Sequence record: PP925845.1 | DNA length: 51,510 bases | Direction: 5' to 3' (one strand) | DNA from: Escherichia phage BananaBelafonte | Shown: positions 41,353 to 49,147 of the stretch, in pieces | Numbering within the stretch: the stretch's first letter is position 1 | Layout: the number at the start of each line of letters is the position of its first letter | Program-made: the position numbers and the translations under genes | The notes under the pieces: generated by a model | What the model was told of the DNA's origin: nothing | Database searches by the model: none | Seen by the model: the letters and a program-made list of their open reading frames with translations, nothing else

Positions 41353-42099
41353 ATGGCTAAAGACGCTTTGGATAATGCAACTATTGACGGCGTTGTTGCG
41401 GTTGATGAAATGGATTTCCACGAGTTGCAGCACGGCAAATATTCAGATATCGCCTTACGTTCTGGCGGTCATTATCAGCCAGTACGTGAAAACACCTACT
41501 TTAAAGTGACGGGCAACCGCTACGCAGGAAGCAACACACCGGACGTTGTGCGGGATTTGTGGGCGACTCCGCGCGAGGTTGTCGAATATATGGCGGAGCG
41601 TTACGGGGCTTATGATCTTGACGCGGCAGCGAGCGAAGAAAACGCAGTGTGCGCGAAGTTCTACAGCAAAGATACGAACTGTTTAAAACGCTGGTGGGGT
41701 AGTAAAAAGCACATATGGCTCAATCCACCATACAGCAATCCAGATCCGTTTGTGCTTAAAGCTATTGAGCAAATGGAGCATGACAACCAGATTGATATTT
41801 TACTTCCGGCTGATAACTCAACGGCCTGGTTTAAAGACGCGCAAAAGAATGCGGCGGAAATTATCTGGATCACTGGCGACACCTGGACGGGCGAGGACGG
41901 GCGCGAATATTCACGCACAGGCCGATTAGCGTTTATTTCTGGTCTGACAGGTGAACCAGTGCAGGGCAACAACAAAGGATCTGTAATCTTTGTTATGCGC
42001 CAACTTAAAGAGGGTGAGCAACAACAAACTCACTATGTGACAATAACCGAAATCTGCCCGTCTGTTAAAAATCGACGCGCAAAAGCAAGGAGCATTTAA
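41353..42099 (+). CDS. dam: DNA N6-adenine methyltransferase (Dam-like)
   Basis: Catalytic NPPY motif (WLNPPYSN); size and organisation typical of phage orphan Dam methylases. Confidence 0.8.
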   Translation: MAKDALDNATIDGVVAVDEMDFHELQHGKYSDIALRSGGHYQPVRENTYFKVTGNRYAGSNTPDVVRDLWATPREVVEYMAERYGAYDLDAAASEENAVCAKFYSKDTNCLKRWWGSKKHIWLNPPYSNPDPFVLKAIEQMEHDNQIDILLPADNSTAWFKDAQKNAAEIIWITGDTWTGEDGREYSRTGRLAFISGLTGEPVQGNNKGSVIFVMRQLKEGEQQQTHYVTITEICPSVKNRRAKARSI

Positions 42100-42205
42100 T
42101 GCACAAATTAACACCCTTGTTTATTGTTATAATCTTCTTAGTCGCTGGCTTTGTATTATCAAGCGGCGCAATAAAATTAATTATCGGATTAGTGGAGCTA
42201 TTCGC

Positions 42206-42436
42206 ATGAAAGAGAAATCTGTTTACCTTAATGAATTAGGTCAGTGGCTACTGTATCGCGGCATGGTTTGCCAAGAGCTAGAAAACCAAAACATGCACCG
42301 CTTGATTGATTGCGACCCGTGGACGTTTTCAGAGTCGCTCGATATGAGCTTTGAAGAAACCCGCGTGCTACCGCTTGAAAAGTGGGGCGAGAAGATTGCG
42401 GAAGATTGCGAGGAGCTAAAACGAGATCTGAAATAG
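42206..42436 (+). CDS. hypothetical protein (76 aa)
   Basis: ORF with GTGGAG RBS; stop embedded in conserved module. Confidence 0.4.
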   Translation: MKEKSVYLNELGQWLLYRGMVCQELENQNMHRLIDCDPWTFSESLDMSFEETRVLPLEKWGEKIAEDCEELKRDLK

Positions 42437-42471
42437 CACGAATTGCTAAAACTGCCCCGCGAAAGTGGGGC
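42434..42471 (+). promoter_or_regulatory. conserved intergenic module copy
   Basis: TAGCACGAATTGCTAAAA with embedded stop, hairpin GCCCCGCGAAAGTGGGGC, then CATAAT; leader CAACGAAACGAACTGAGGAAA. Confidence 0.55.
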
Positions 42472-42507
42472 ATAATCATTTCAACGAAACGAACTGAGGA
42501 AACCGAA

Positions 42508-42705
42508 ATGAAAATCTACTGCAAACGCTCCTTTAAACTGGCTCAAGAAGTCTCACGCGAGGCGGTAGCCGAGGGGAGCAAGGCGGGTTATGATTTCGAT
42601 TGGTCAATCGCAATGATTTATCTGAAAGTTGCGACGGGCTACGCGAGCATTGAGGAGATCGAACGTTTGGAAAAGGCAATTAACGAGGTAAGCAATGAAG
42701 GTTGA
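42508..42705 (+). CDS. hypothetical protein (65 aa)
   Basis: ATG at 42508 after GAGGAAACC leader; ORF-track start 42382 rejected. Confidence 0.4.
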   Translation: MKIYCKRSFKLAQEVSREAVAEGSKAGYDFDWSIAMIYLKVATGYASIEEIERLEKAINEVSNEG

Positions 42706-42940
42706 AACCGGACGCCAGGCAGTTTGGCAGCACGCAAAGGAGTGCGGTTTAGACGAGAAAATAGCACTAATTGCTAAATACTTCGATATCAAGGATGTTA
42801 GTATTATTGGCAACGGGAAAATGACCTACATAGAGGAAAGACCCCGTAAGATGTACCGAGTGCCAGCCGTGCCAACTGGTAAAGCAGATGTGAGCGCGGA
42901 GCTTGCGAAACTTAGAGAACCGAAAAAACGTTATAAGTGA
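42695..42940 (+). CDS. hypothetical protein (81 aa)
   Basis: ORF with GAGGT RBS; contains an in-coding copy of the conserved 20-bp element. Confidence 0.35.
   Translation: MKVETGRQAVWQHAKECGLDEKIALIAKYFDIKDVSIIGNGKMTYIEERPRKMYRVPAVPTGKADVSAELAKLREPKKRYK
42762..42779 (+). repeat. copy of conserved 20-bp element inside a coding region
   Basis: TAGCACTAATTGCTAAAT lies within ORF 42695-42940, out of frame for the TAG. Confidence 0.4.
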
Positions 42941-42950
42941 GGATTGTTAT

Positions 42951-47667: not shown

Positions 47668-47722
47668 TCTTCAAATCTCCTTTCTTGTTGCCGCTTATAA
47701 TACGGCAACAATGCTACCCTGT

Positions 47723-47742
47723 TTTAACAAAAAGTGCTATTT
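47723..47742 (-). promoter_or_regulatory. conserved intergenic module copy (minus strand)
   Basis: Minus strand reads AATAGCACTTTTTGTTAAAA with embedded stop of gene 47737-47985, then hairpin GTTGCCG..CGGCAAC and RBS of the 526-aa gene. Confidence 0.5.
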
Positions 47743-47985
47743 GATCCGCTCAATGCGAGCCATTAATTTACCATTCAGCGAGCTAACGCATTCGGCGGTG
47801 ACTTTATCGACGTAGACAAAAGGCAGTGACGCGCGGTAGTTATGCCCGATTTGCCACTTCCCGCCTACAACCTTAATCGGCTTGACGATATCGCCAACTT
47901 TCATGCAGGAGGTTTCCCCCGCGATCACTTTGTAGCGCCATTCTTTTTGCACGTCGCCAACGCCTAAGTATTTCTTTTCACTCAT
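47737..47985 (-). CDS. hypothetical protein (82 aa)
   Basis: ORF overlapping upstream stop (ATGA); stop embedded in conserved module. Confidence 0.4.
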   Translation of the reverse strand: MSEKKYLGVGDVQKEWRYKVIAGETSCMKVGDIVKPIKVVGGKWQIGHNYRASLPFVYVDKVTAECVSSLNGKLMARIERIK

Positions 47986-48380
47986 GAATATTTCGCCTCA
48001 AACAGATATGCGCCACCAGCAGAGAATCCGACCTCCTCGCGGTAGAGTGTGAAGCGGTCGCCGTCCTCGTCAAAGATATAGCCAGCCACGCCGCCCAATA
48101 CGCGCCCTTGCTCGATCTGATAACGCTTGCCCACCTTAAATGTTTTCTTGTGGCTCATTGAGTGATCGACATACGTGCATTTGATAGTGCGGGTTTTGAT
48201 TTCGCGATAATCGCGCTTATCAGCATCAACCCACTTTGAGCCTTTCGCCAATTCGCGCACCTGGAATTGCTCATTAAATGAAACTTCTTCGGGCTGAAAA
48301 TCCATGCTGCCATTGAATACAGGGCGATCAACGATACGAGCTTTCATGAGTTTGTTGTCAGAGTTGCGAATCACTTTCAT
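47982..48380 (-). CDS. hypothetical protein (132 aa)
   Basis: ATG (rc) at 48380 after AAAGGAG; ORF-track start 48413 rejected. Confidence 0.4.
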   Translation of the reverse strand: MKVIRNSDNKLMKARIVDRPVFNGSMDFQPEEVSFNEQFQVRELAKGSKWVDADKRDYREIKTRTIKCTYVDHSMSHKKTFKVGKRYQIEQGRVLGGVAGYIFDEDGDRFTLYREEVGFSAGGAYLFEAKYS

Positions 48381-48405
48381 TTGTGTATCTCCTTTCGTTT
48401 GGTGT

Positions 48406-48457
48406 GATTGCATTATGCCAGGCTTTTACACCTGGCGTTTAGCAATTCGTGCTATTT
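48406..48457 (-). promoter_or_regulatory. conserved intergenic module copy (minus strand)
   Basis: Minus strand reads TAGCACGAATTGCTAAAC (stop of methyltransferase-like gene embedded), hairpin GCCAGG..CCTGGC, CATAAT, then AAAGGAG. Confidence 0.55.
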
Positions 48458-49147
48458 TGCGTTTGCGATCATGACGGCACGAGCAAACCCGCGCGGGGTG
48501 AGTGAGCGAAGTTGTTTTGTCCTGGCAGACTTGCCGCCGAGATACTTCCACGCCCAAAAGAAACCGATATTGACGGGGCCAGGGCACGCGCCAGGCATCA
48601 CAAAGCCGTTGCCAAACCAAAGGCATGTTTTCTTTGTGTAGCCGTCAAAGGCTGGCATTTTTGGATGGAATGGCTTTTCGTCCTCTCGCATATACCCGCC
48701 ATACTGGAACGGATGGAAATAAGCGTTAGGCTTGCGCCACTTTGTAGAAAGCAGCCCCACAGGGTTTTCAACCATCCAGGGGCAATCATAGAGCAACCCC
48801 AGCTTTTCGACGAATTTTGCATTGTTGACAGCCAACTCAACCGCGCTTTCGTCTCGCTCGTGCTGTGCGCCACTGTGCGCTAATTCTGTGCATGACGGAA
48901 ACGCAAAAATGATATCGGGCTTTGAGATCACAATGTTGTTGTCGTCGTCGATATCGTGAACGTCACCAACCGGATCAAACCATTCATCAATCCATCGGTT
49001 GACGTAGTGCAAATTTGGGTGACGCATTTTGATCTCATATTCGCCGTGGTCGGCGGAGTCAGCGTTAAAGCAAAATACAGTGTGACCAGCTTTCGCCCAA
49101 TCCAGCCCCATAATACCGGAGCCGTCAAACAGTGACCAAACAACCAT
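48452..49147 (-). CDS. DNA cytosine-C5 methyltransferase-like protein (compact, 231 aa)
   Basis: Motif I-like SLFDGSG, Pro-Cys-like FPSC, ENV-like WMVENPVG; RBS AAGAGG; no obvious target recognition domain. Confidence 0.45.
   Translation of the reverse strand: MVVWSLFDGSGIMGLDWAKAGHTVFCFNADSADHGEYEIKMRHPNLHYVNRWIDEWFDPVGDVHDIDDDNNIVISKPDIIFAFPSCTELAHSGAQHERDESAVELAVNNAKFVEKLGLLYDCPWMVENPVGLLSTKWRKPNAYFHPFQYGGYMREDEKPFHPKMPAFDGYTKKTCLWFGNGFVMPGACPGPVNIGFFWAWKYLGGKSARTKQLRSLTPRGFARAVMIANAK

What the first reader, a model, noticed from the sequence alone, without database searches (positions are those of the whole stretch)
41353..49147. Two methyltransferase-like genes: Dam plus a compact cytosine-C5-like enzyme
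Besides a clear Dam-type adenine methylase (NPPY motif, 41353-42099), the minus-strand right arm encodes a 231-aa protein with C5-methyltransferase-like motifs (FxGxG-like SLFDGSG, Pro-Cys-like FPSC, ENV-like ENPVG) but no evident target recognition domain. It could be a second anti-restriction methylase, or a non-methylating derivative acting in DNA modification.
Basis: partly seen in the sequence, partly recalled or inferred. Interest (0 to 1): 0.5.

Follow-up and report, generated by a model that had tools for sequence, protein, structure and literature searches.

The report
T1-type phage Dam plus compact Dcm-like methylase
This T1-like phage carries two separate DNA methylase genes, a standard adenine (Dam) methylase and a very small cytosine-C5 methylase lacking the usual DNA-reading domain; both belong to families already annotated in many phages, so the finding is correct but largely ordinary.

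Summary
Both genes exist at the stated coordinates. The window is a Drexlerviridae (T1-like) phage.

**Dam, 41353-42099 (+), 248 aa.** It is a clear phage Dam (Pfam PF05869, E 1e-61; TIGR01712) and is 67% identical to T1 Dam.

**Compact C5 enzyme, 48452-49147 (-), 231 aa.**
- It misses every Pfam, NCBIfam and PDB sequence model.
- It hits PHROG 757 and has about 1,800 cluster representatives, the aligned members being 202-261 aa.
- It has homologues in 1,505 of 50,697 phage records.
- Motifs I, IV (catalytic Cys86), VI (Glu127) and a VIII-like strand sit at canonical spacing. Only about 50 residues follow, so there is no small domain or TRD.

**Published evidence.** A 47%-identical, syntenic homologue (phage K42/KarlJaspers "Dcm") raises 5mC in DNA and triggers retron Ec86. 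Its four mutated residues are conserved here.

**Specificity.** CCWGG is likely but unproven. CCWGG and GATC are not avoided in the window, whereas many other palindromes are purged.

**Verdict.** This is a new member of a known kind, of low-to-moderate interest. How it recognises its site is the one open question.

The parts
41353..42099 (+). Dam-type N6-adenine DNA methyltransferase gene (248 aa)
   Evidence: Pfam PF05869 at E 1.2e-61. TIGR01712 phage_N6A_met at E 3.4e-58. PHROG 111. 67% identical to the T1 Dam gene ST20.
41722..41733 (+). NPPY catalytic motif of Dam (residues 124-127)
   Evidence: Direct translation.
48452..49147 (-). Compact Dcm-like cytosine-C5 DNA methyltransferase gene (231 aa)
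49115..49135 (-). Motif I, SLFDGSG (SAM-binding loop, residues 5-11)
   Evidence: DGSG is invariant among 31 close homologues. The consensus in the wider family is SLFDxTG.
48887..48901 (-). Motif IV, FPSCT, with the catalytic Cys86
   Evidence: Cys86 is invariant in 78 homologues. It equals C82 of K42 Dcm, which was mutated in the inactive control. The residue before Cys is Ser here; the family consensus is FPPC.
48755..48769 (-). Motif VI, ENPVG, with Glu127
   Evidence: Glu127 and Pro129 are invariant. Glu127 equals E128 of K42 Dcm. hhalign places it on ENV of E. coli Dcm, though not significantly.
48617..48640 (-). Motif-VIII-like strand, YTKKTCLW (Y170, K172, T174 and W177 invariant)
   Evidence: Predicted beta-strand at 174-179. 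Invariance. K172/K173 equal K175/K176 of K42 Dcm. The assignment to motif VIII (QxRxR) is inference.
48473..48538 (-). Conserved C-terminal block, GGKSARTKQLRSLTPRGFARAV, which replaces the small domain, hinge and C-terminal helix
   Evidence: Conserved in A1 and A2. R214-R223 aligns with motif IX (RRLTPRECAR) of E. coli Dcm at 7/10 identical, E 0.057, not significant. No motif X could be placed.
49156..49161 (-). Shine-Dalgarno-like AAGAGG, 8 nt upstream of the ATG and overlapping the stop codon of the upstream 74-aa ORF
   Evidence: Sequence read directly. K42 escaper mutants carried a point mutation 9 bp upstream of dcm.

Best explanation
The window encodes two independent, solitary ('orphan') phage DNA methyltransferases.

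1. A T1-type Dam. It methylates adenine in GATC.
2. A 231-aa cytosine-C5 methyltransferase that is essentially the catalytic (large) domain alone. It is expected to use the normal C5 mechanism: Cys86 attacks C6 of a flipped-out cytosine, Glu127 protonates N3, and the methyl group of SAM goes to C5. The product is 5-methylcytosine, most probably in CCWGG.

Both enzymes are expressed from the replication and early regions. They would mark replicating phage DNA so that host restriction enzymes blocked by that methylation do not cut it.

The same activity is a liability. In a close relative it methylates the msDNA of retron Ec86 (Eco1) and so triggers abortive infection.

What is shown and what is inferred:
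- Shown here: gene integrity, family membership, fold, and conservation of the catalytic residues.
- Shown in a 47% homologue by others: 5mC formation and retron triggering.
- Inferred: CCWGG specificity, the anti-restriction role, and activity of this particular protein.
For: Dam:
- Strong HMM hits and 67% identity to T1 Dam.
- GATC observed/expected is 1.04 in the window and about 1.0 in 33 Dam+ relatives. It is 0.17-0.30 in five related loci where no Dam gene lies within the locus (Mann-Whitney p 2e-6).

C5 enzyme:
- AF2 pLDDT 90.8.
- PHROG 363 matches residues 2-152 at E 2e-4. Five of 78 homologues weakly hit PF00145.
- Spacings are canonical: Cys86 to Glu127 is 41 residues, and Glu127 to Lys172 is 45.
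- The gene is syntenic with, and 47% identical to, the 711-bp dcm of KarlJaspers/K42.
- That protein raised 5mC in msDNA by LC-MS. A C82A/E128A/K175A/K176A mutant did not. Escaper phages had lost the gene.

Specificity:
- In the window, CCWGG is 205 observed against 165 expected. In contrast CCSGG is 1/37, GGWCC 0/21, CTGCAG 0/12.5 and RCCGGY 0/36.
- Median CCWGG observed/expected is 1.14 in 31 gene-positive loci and 0.82 in 7 gene-negative loci (p 4e-4, not corrected for phylogeny).
- Phage 2019SD1 carries this gene type. Its nanopore-only assembly miscalls 40 of 40 CCWGG sites and no other motif comparably. This suggests its virion DNA carried 5mC at CCWGG.
Against: - There are no methylation data for this phage or this protein.
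- Pfam PF00145, NCBIfam and PDB sequence searches do not recognise it. Profile comparison with E. coli Dcm is not significant.
- The Pro of the 'Pro-Cys' dipeptide is Ser here (FPSC). The characterised homologue has FPPC.
- The motif-II acidic residue is Asn28, although the active K42 enzyme also has Asn.
- The segment at 183-203, the only candidate 'mini-TRD', differs completely between this protein and K42 Dcm. Specificity therefore cannot simply be transferred.
- CCWGG was assumed, not mapped, in the K42 study.
- The MG1655 background used there is dcm+ in my own knowledge of E. coli K-12; this was not checked here.
- Phages lacking the gene, such as T1, show only mild CCWGG depletion (0.82).
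- Host Dcm could explain the nanopore signal.
- Maffei et al. saw no simple link between methylase genes and restriction resistance.
Confidence: 0.7

Rival explanations
1. It is an active C5 methyltransferase, but its target is not CCWGG, or its main role is not anti-restriction. For example it could have a shorter or different motif read by the divergent 183-203 segment, or a regulatory, replication or packaging role.
For: - Specificity was never mapped for any family member.
- The 183-203 segment differs between the window type and the K42 type.
- There is no clear link between methylase genes and restriction phenotypes in BASEL Drexlerviridae.
- Gene-less relatives barely avoid CCWGG.
Against: - CCWGG is the C-containing short palindrome that differs most between gene-positive and gene-negative loci. 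It is over-represented, while CpG- and GpC-containing palindromes are purged: GGCGCC 3/217, CCGCGG 1/158, CAGCTG 3/74 and GGCC 0.61. This argues against a broad CpG, GpC or non-specific enzyme.
- In 2019SD1 only CCWGG shows systematic nanopore errors.
Confidence: 0.17
2. It transfers a group other than methyl, or is catalytically dead. One option is a carboxymethyl group from host-made Cx-SAM, as the phage enzyme CmoX and the engineered M.MpeI N374K do. In that case it would be a DNA-hypermodification enzyme or a DNA-binding derivative rather than a plain methylase.
For: - Cofactor choice in CmoX depends on an Arg at the position of M.HhaI Asn304 (PMC12783734).
- No canonical motif X (GN[AS]V) can be placed here. 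A Gly-Gly-Lys (204-206) lies where a by-eye alignment puts it.
- In my own knowledge, enterobacterial hosts make Cx-SAM through CmoA; this was not tested here.
Against: - The K42 homologue, which also has GGKS, produced 5mC by LC-MS.
- No CmoA, CmoY or other modification genes occur in the window.
- Residue 206 varies (K/N/D/A/S) among close homologues.
- All catalytic residues are conserved.
Confidence: 0.06
3. It is an RNA (tRNA) m5C methyltransferase of the DNMT2 kind, not a DNA enzyme.
For: - The only PDB C5 enzyme picked up by the family profile is DNMT2, at E 0.65.
Against: - The homologue methylates DNA (msDNA) in vivo.
- The gene sits in the DNA-replication module next to a helicase.
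Confidence: 0.03

Closest known systems
Phage K42 / KarlJaspers (Bas06) 'Dcm', the trigger of retron Ec86 (Eco1). Reference: Wang et al., bioRxiv 10.1101/2023.08.16.553469, cited elsewhere as Cell Rep 2024;43:114857.
   Same: - 47% identity over the full length, E 6e-68.
- Same size: 231 vs 236 aa.
- Same position, upstream of two small ORFs and the DUF3987 helicase on the same strand.
- C82, E128, K175 and K176 there equal C86, E127, K172 and K173 here.
   Different: - FPSC here against FPPC there.
- Residues 183-203 are unrelated: PGACPGPVNIGFFWAWKY against PPRATILPKEDDKDNPGWAK.
- There is an extra 8-residue insert at about residues 60-75 here.
- This protein has not been tested.
Canonical prokaryotic DNA cytosine-C5 methyltransferases (Pfam PF00145; M.HhaI, M.HaeIII, E. 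coli Dcm)
   Same: - Same order and spacing of motifs I, IV, VI and VIII.
- A catalytic Cys and Glu.
   Different: - 231 aa here, against 327 aa for the M.HhaI chain and 472 aa for E. coli Dcm.
- No small domain or TRD. About 40 residues separate the motif-VIII-like strand from the IX-like block here, against about 125 in E. coli Dcm (Q274 to R400).
- ENV is ENPV.
- QxRxR is YxKxT.
- There is no recognisable GN[AS]V motif X.
- It fails the Pfam gathering score entirely.
DNMT3A/DNMT3B catalytic domains (eukaryotic de novo methyltransferases)
   Same: - In my own knowledge they too have an unusually small TRD and an 'SLFDG' motif I; this was not tested here.
   Different: - Only 12-16% identity.
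- The DNMT3 domains are about 270-290 aa, work as oligomers with DNMT3L, and target CpG.
- No evolutionary link is claimed.
SpCmoX, phage DNA cytosine C5-carboxymethyltransferase (PDB 8yf3; PMC12783734)
   Different: - CmoX is 333 aa.
- It is co-encoded with CmoA and CmoY.
- It uses Arg350 to bind the Cx-SAM carboxylate.
- The window has no CmoA, and the homologue makes 5mC.
Phage T1 Dam (ST20; PF05869 / TIGR01712), the comparator for the first gene
   Same: - 67% identity.
- Same position after the helicase and the VRR-NUC gene.
- The same NPPY motif.
   Different: Nothing of note. This is an ordinary orthologue.

Membership tests
Phage Dam (Pfam PF05869 / NCBIfam TIGR01712) | Score above the curated HMM cut-offs | tested here: met
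   207.8 bits against a cut-off of 28.1. 195.8 bits against 97.05.
Phage Dam (Pfam PF05869 / NCBIfam TIGR01712) | (D/N)PPY catalytic motif | tested here: met
   NPPY at residues 124-127.
Phage Dam (Pfam PF05869 / NCBIfam TIGR01712) | m6A at GATC | not testable with these tools
   Indirect evidence only. GATC is not avoided in Dam+ genomes (observed/expected about 1.0). It is strongly avoided (0.17-0.30) in related loci with no Dam gene in the locus.
DNA cytosine-C5 methyltransferase superfamily (PF00145-type) | Class I SAM-MTase fold closest to C5 MTases | tested here: met
   [not shown]
DNA cytosine-C5 methyltransferase superfamily (PF00145-type) | Motif IV Pro-Cys with an invariant catalytic Cys | tested here: met
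   Cys86 is invariant in 78 homologues. The family consensus is FPPCTDLAVSG. Here the residue before Cys is Ser.
DNA cytosine-C5 methyltransferase superfamily (PF00145-type) | Motif VI, ENV, with an invariant Glu | tested here: met
   E127 and P129 are invariant and N128 nearly so. The motif reads ENPV rather than ENV.
DNA cytosine-C5 methyltransferase superfamily (PF00145-type) | Motif I, FxGxG | tested here: met
   LFDGSG at residues 6-11. The wider family has LFDxTG.
DNA cytosine-C5 methyltransferase superfamily (PF00145-type) | Motif VIII, QxRxR | tested here: not met
   The corresponding strand reads Y170-x-K172-x-T174. It is invariant but is not QxRxR.
DNA cytosine-C5 methyltransferase superfamily (PF00145-type) | Small domain with a TRD between motifs VIII and IX, and motif X (GN[AS]V) | tested here: not met
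   Only 54 residues follow W177, with no strand after residue 179. Motif X of E. coli Dcm could not be aligned.
DNA cytosine-C5 methyltransferase superfamily (PF00145-type) | Pfam PF00145 gathering score | tested here: not met
   No hit at E up to 1 for this protein. Only 5 of 78 relatives hit weakly, best E 0.0067.
Compact phage Dcm-like family (PHROG 757; K42/KarlJaspers Dcm) | Full-length sequence membership | tested here: met
   PHROG 757 at E 9.7e-80 over residues 1-230. 47% identity to bas06_0055. 2,152 homologues at E up to 1e-3, and the 120 best listed are nearly all 215-250 aa.
Compact phage Dcm-like family (PHROG 757; K42/KarlJaspers Dcm) | The four residues whose mutation abolished activity (C82, E128, K175, K176) | tested here: met
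   C86, E127, K172 and K173 align with them. C86, E127 and K172 are invariant in the family.
Compact phage Dcm-like family (PHROG 757; K42/KarlJaspers Dcm) | 5mC formation in DNA; triggering of retron Ec86 | not testable with these tools
   Shown only for K42 Dcm by others.
CmoX-type cytosine C5-carboxymethyltransferase | Co-encoded Cx-SAM synthase CmoA | tested here: not met
   tblastn of E. coli CmoA against the window gave only a spurious 70-aa match (E 0.023), antisense within the phosphoesterase gene.
CmoX-type cytosine C5-carboxymethyltransferase | Arg (or Lys) at the position of M.HhaI Asn304 contacting the carboxylate | tested here: inconclusive
   Motif X cannot be placed. G204-G205-K206 is a by-eye candidate, and residue 206 is variable in close homologues.

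The most novel reading that the evidence does not exclude
The family may be a natural 'catalytic-domain-only' cytosine-C5 methyltransferase. It has no small domain, no TRD and no recognisable motix X-type GN[AS]V motif. If it nevertheless reads a 5-bp site (CCWGG), it would need a recognition mode not seen in solved C5 enzymes, for example loops of the catalytic domain or a dimer straddling the site. At about 230 aa it would then be the smallest sequence-specific DNA C5 methyltransferase.

A longer shot, about 5%: with no canonical motif-X Asn and a Lys nearby, it might also accept host Cx-SAM and make 5-carboxymethylcytosine.
Probability: 0.3. Interest if true: 0.5.

Novelty: new member of a known kind. 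Interest (0 to 1): 0.25.

Why it matters
**For this phage.**
- The result is mostly annotation. It carries a T1-type Dam and a Dcm-like C5 methylase.
- It is therefore predicted to be protected from restriction enzymes blocked by methylation at GATC and, probably, CCWGG.
- It is also predicted to be sensitive to retron Ec86/Eco1, which senses this very enzyme in a relative. That is useful to know for phage-therapy host range and for defence-system studies.

**More generally.**
- The family is abundant: about 3% of deposited phage genomes.
- It is invisible to Pfam and NCBIfam, and its sequence specificity has not been mapped in the literature I could search.
- How a C5 methylase with no target-recognition domain selects its site is a real but modest open question in methyltransferase enzymology.

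**A practical side result.** Several public Drexlerviridae genomes assembled from native nanopore reads have every CCWGG miscalled, and genes frameshifted as a result. This can mislead both motif-avoidance and pseudogene analyses.

Tried and rejected
1. **Sequence searches for the 231-aa protein.** Pfam, NCBIfam and PDB (phmmer, and profiles of 31 and of 78 sequences) gave no significant hits. hhalign against E. coli Dcm aligned motifs IV and VI, and motif IX, sensibly but not significantly.
2. **The afdb50 fold library** was not available. The Rtp genome paper is not held.
3. **A tempting result that I rejected.**
   - Three relatives (L051, L052 = Shigella phage 2019SD1, L053 = Citrobacter phage HCF1) looked as if they combined decayed Dcm-like genes with near-total CCWGG avoidance: 1/28, 0/28 and 1/21.
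   - This would have tied the gene to CCWGG.
   - Alignment with the 95%-identical PGN590 showed CCWGG replaced by CCGTG, CCCGG, CC-GG or CCGGG at 40 of 40 sites.
   - The 2019SD1 paper reports native-DNA ONT R9.4 reads, Albacore base-calling and a Canu assembly, and mentions no short-read polishing (PMC8590004).
   - So both the 'avoidance' and the 'pseudogenes' are base-calling artefacts at 5mC sites. I kept this only as indirect evidence of CCWGG methylation.
4. **RCCGGY as a host marker.** I tried to use depletion of the V. cholerae VchM motif (RCCGGY) in 'Vibrio phage Vc1' to prove growth on a host that, in my own knowledge, lacks Dcm. RCCGGY is avoided in all Drexlerviridae, including the window (0/36), so it carries no information.
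5. **An unbiased scan of palindromic 4-6-mers** for motifs avoided only in gene-negative loci. GATC (Dam) stands out. CCWGG is the best C-containing candidate, but the contrast is modest (1.16 against 0.84-0.89).
6. **A required partner protein** supplying DNA recognition. I considered and dropped this, because K42 Dcm alone expressed from a plasmid was sufficient. The neighbouring ORFs are PHROGs of unknown function.
7. **A CmoA/CmoX-type carboxymethylation system.** There is no CmoA in the window.

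
Full report
**What the window is.** Megablast of 41353-49147 finds Drexlerviridae (T1-like siphoviruses). The closest is Klebsiella phage vB_KM5a1-KLB26, at 93% identity over 98% of the query. Next, at about 82%, come Salmonella phage PMBT35 and Escherichia phages W011D, PaulSarasin and PHB17. In those records the two genes are already annotated as 'N-6-adenine-methyltransferase / Dam' and 'cytosine specific methyltransferase / Dcm-like C5 cytosine methyltransferase'.

- ORF 41353-42099 (+) encodes 248 aa, and ORF 48452-49147 (-) encodes 231 aa.
- The quoted strings are present:
  - NPPY at Dam residues 124-127;
  - SLFDGSG at residues 5-11;
  - FPSC at residues 83-86;
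  - ENPVG at residues 127-131.
- The two genes are not a unit. They lie 6.3 kb apart on opposite strands.
- Between them are small ORFs, a phosphoesterase/'DNA repair exonuclease' (PHROG 704), the holin-endolysin-spanin cassette and a DUF3987 helicase.
- The C5-like gene is the second gene of a minus-strand run. An AAGAGG lies 8 nt before its ATG and overlaps the stop codon of the upstream ORF.

**Dam.**
- It scores Pfam PF05869 at E 1.2e-61, TIGR01712 'phage N-6-adenine-methyltransferase' at E 3.4e-58, and PHROG 111.
- It is 67% identical to the T1 Dam gene ST20 and sits in the same place, after the helicase and the VRR-NUC gene.
- I fetched 47 helicase-centred loci of related phages and typed them for both methylase genes by tblastn.
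- GATC observed/expected (Markov model) is 1.04 in the window and about 1.0 in the Dam+ loci. It is 0.17-0.30 in five related loci in which no Dam gene lies within the locus (Mann-Whitney p 2e-6).
- That is the pattern expected if Dam protects GATC. It is an ordinary T1-type Dam.

**The 231-aa protein: sequence level.**
- No Pfam or NCBIfam model hits it, even at E up to 1.
- phmmer and two family profiles find nothing significant in the PDB. The only C5 enzyme seen is DNMT2, at E 0.65, aligned over motifs I to IV.
- It does belong to PHROG 757 'DNA methyltransferase' (E 1e-79). Its first 152 residues weakly match PHROG 363, another 'DNA methyltransferase' family of 327 positions (E 2e-4).
- The family is large and uniformly small:
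  - 2,152 homologues in the 90%-clustered database, of which the 120 best listed are nearly all 215-250 aa;
  - 1,797 representatives at 50% clustering;
  - tblastn matches in 1,505 of 50,697 phage records, covering Drexlerviridae, Dhillonvirus, Kagunavirus, rV5-like myoviruses, Vibrio and Arthrobacter phages;
  - copies in enterobacterial genomes, where NCBI names them 'DNA cytosine methyltransferase'.
- In 78 diverse members (29-57% identical to the query) the invariant residues are C86, G93, E127, P129, P146, Y170, K172, T174, W177 and P185. The motif IV consensus is the canonical-looking FPPCTDLAVSG.
- Five of the 78 hit PF00145 weakly.

**The 231-aa protein: structure level.**
- An AlphaFold2 model built on a 31-sequence alignment is confident (pLDDT 90.8, pTM 0.89).
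- The Foldseek top hits against the PDB are DNMT3B/3A, M.HaeIII and DNMT1 (E 1e-6 to 1e-4).
  - M.MpeI, M.HaeIII, EhMeth, DNMT1, ZMET2 and a Shigella C5 MTase, all lower.
- BFVD returns family members and other viral cytosine methylases, some equally short.
The similarity is there.

**Anatomy.**
- The N-terminal 180 residues carry motifs I, IV, VI and a VIII-like strand. Spacings are close to canonical: C86 to E127 is 41 residues, and E127 to K172 is 45. In E. coli Dcm the corresponding distances are 47 and 50.
- Deviations from the textbook motifs:
  - ENPV instead of ENV;
  - Y-x-K-x-T instead of Q-x-R-x-R;
  - Asn28 where most of the wider family has Asp;
  - in this protein, Ser before the catalytic Cys.
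- After W177 only 54 residues remain. The family range is 50-88.
- These residues are predicted as a loop and three short helices with no strand. The small domain that holds the TRD in M.HhaI-type enzymes is therefore absent.
- The one conserved C-terminal block is G204-G-K-S...R214-S-L-T-P-R-G-F-A-R-A-V225.
- By hhalign it matches motif IX of E. coli Dcm (RRLTPRECAR), 7 of 10 identical, E 0.057. Motif X could not be placed.
- Whether the last helix sits at the motif IX or the motif X position in space is unresolved, because the tools do not return residue-level superpositions.

**Experimental anchor from the literature.**
- Wang et al. (bioRxiv 10.1101/2023.08.16.553469; cited elsewhere as Cell Rep 2024;43:114857) selected mutants of phage K42 that escape retron Ec86. 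K42 is 95% identical to KarlJaspers/Bas06.
- All four escapers had lesions in or just upstream of a 711-bp 'dcm' gene.
- Expressing that gene alone was toxic only when Ec86 was present.
- LC-MS showed high 5mC in msDNA with the wild-type protein but not with a C82A/E128A/K175A/K176A mutant.
- 34 of 35 Ec86-sensitive phages encoded such a gene.
- I fetched KarlJaspers. Its 711-bp gene bas06_0055 occupies the same position as the window gene, upstream of two small ORFs and the DUF3987 helicase.
- It is 47% identical to the window protein over the full length, E 6e-68. C82, E128, K175 and K176 align with C86, E127, K172 and K173.
- The family therefore contains at least one member with demonstrated C5-methylating activity on DNA.

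**Specificity is not settled.**
- The K42 study assumed CCWGG by analogy with E. coli Dcm. It showed only that mutating the CCTGG in the msDNA stem abolishes defence.
- My indirect tests were as follows.
  - (a) In the window CCWGG is not avoided (205 observed, 165 expected), and neither is GATC (300/287). Many other sites are purged: CCSGG 1/37, GGWCC 0/21, CTGCAG 0/12.5, RCCGGY 0/36 and GGCC 78/191.
  - (b) Pooled over 31 gene-positive loci, CpG- and GpC-containing palindromes are almost absent: GGCGCC 3/217, CCGCGG 1/158, TCCGGA 14/269 and CAGCTG 3/74. This argues against a broad CpG, GpC or non-specific methylase.
  - (c) Median CCWGG observed/expected is 1.14 in gene-positive loci and 0.82 in seven gene-negative loci, including T1. 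The p value is 4e-4 but is not corrected for phylogeny, and the depletion is mild.
  - (d) Phage 2019SD1 carries a window-type gene. Its genome comes from native DNA on ONT R9.4 with Albacore and Canu, and the paper mentions no short-read polishing (PMC8590004). Against the 95%-identical PGN590, all 40 CCWGG sites are miscalled, while the baseline for 5-mers is 24% and GATC is 9/78.
- In my own knowledge such miscalls are typical of 5mC at Dcm sites in older ONT base-callers. They imply near-complete CCWGG methylation of that virion DNA and no other strongly miscalled motif.
- Host Dcm cannot be excluded as the source.
- Overall, CCWGG is the leading candidate at roughly 55-60%.
- The only plausible specificity-determining segment, residues 183-203, is unrelated between the window type and the K42 type.

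**Mechanism and role (inferred).**
- The protein is expected to flip out the target cytosine. Cys86 would add to C6, Glu127 would protonate N3, and SAM would methylate C5.
- Together with Dam it would pre-empt host restriction enzymes that are blocked by methylation of their sites.
- The cost is recognition by retron Ec86/Eco1.
- Maffei et al. found no simple relation between these genes and restriction phenotypes in 13 BASEL Drexlerviridae (PMC8594841). The size of the benefit is therefore unproven.

**Alternatives considered.**
- A carboxymethyl-transferring enzyme like CmoX is a long shot.
  - For: CmoX is a good structural match. Its cofactor switch is an Arg at the M.HhaI Asn304 position (PMC12783734), a position I cannot map here.
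  - Against: there is no CmoA in the window, residue 206 is variable, and the K42 enzyme makes 5mC.
- A DNMT2-like RNA enzyme is unlikely, given the higher DNA-MTase scores and the msDNA result.
- An inactive derivative is unlikely, given strict conservation of the catalytic residues across about 1,800 cluster representatives.

**Verdict.**
- Both genes belong to known and widely annotated families, and the second has a characterised homologue.
- The residual interest is enzymological: a C5 methylase reduced to its catalytic domain, invisible to Pfam, whose site recognition is unexplained.
- Novelty: new member of a known kind. Interest: 0.25.

Noticed in passing
whole window (1-51510): Restriction-site avoidance is extreme and selective. 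CCSGG is 1 observed against 37 expected, GGWCC 0/21, CTGCAG 0/12.5, RCCGGY 0/36, GGCC 78/191 and CTAG 23/63. CCWGG (205/165) and GATC (300/287) are not avoided. Related loci share the purge of many 6-bp palindromes, for example GGCGCC 3/217 and CCGCGG 1/158. CCSGG avoidance is specific to some lineages.
   Followed up: partly
L037, L038, L040, L041, L042 (related ~47-kb phages from IMG/VR): In these relatives neither the Dam nor the Dcm-like gene is present in the locus fetched around the helicase. They avoid GATC strongly (observed/expected 0.17-0.30), whereas Dam+ relatives do not. L039, from the same clade, has the Dcm-like gene and GATC at 0.14. Only part of each genome was held, so absence of Dam elsewhere in the genome was not checked.
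   Followed up: partly
Their Dcm-like genes appear frameshifted. Against a 95%-identical genome, every CCWGG site in 2019SD1 is replaced by CCGTG, CCCGG, CC-GG and similar strings. 2019SD1 was assembled from native ONT reads with Albacore and Canu. These are base-calling artefacts at methylated sites, not biology. The records are unreliable for motif or pseudogene analysis.
   Followed up: yes
43036-44157 (+): The 373-aa phosphoesterase/'DNA repair exonuclease' (PHROG 704) has an N-terminal helix-turn-helix. It scores just above the Pfam cut-off for Sigma70_r4_2 (residues 14-41) and weakly matches a D5-like transcriptional-regulator PHROG.
   Followed up: no
47737-48413 (-) and 49160-49384 (-): The small ORFs flanking the C5 methylase gene are 143 aa (PHROG 2684), 82 aa (PHROG 12725) and 74 aa (PHROG 9323). 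All are conserved in phages, of unknown function, and have no Pfam hit. A K42 escaper deletion removed four genes here including dcm, so the deleted genes are dispensable in the laboratory.
   Followed up: no
BFVD entry A0A6J5SE15_1 (uncultured Caudovirales phage): A 1,397-aa protein described as 'Helicase/UvrB, N-terminal' contains a domain matching the compact methylase model (Foldseek E 2e-10, 25% identity). This suggests natural fusions of this minimal C5-MTase domain to a helicase.
   Followed up: no
L006 (phage T1, NC_005833) 46621-47327: T1 itself lacks the Dcm-like gene at the syntenic position, between ST7 and ST6, although it keeps Dam. The gene is therefore an accessory, variably present element within Drexlerviridae.
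   Followed up: partly
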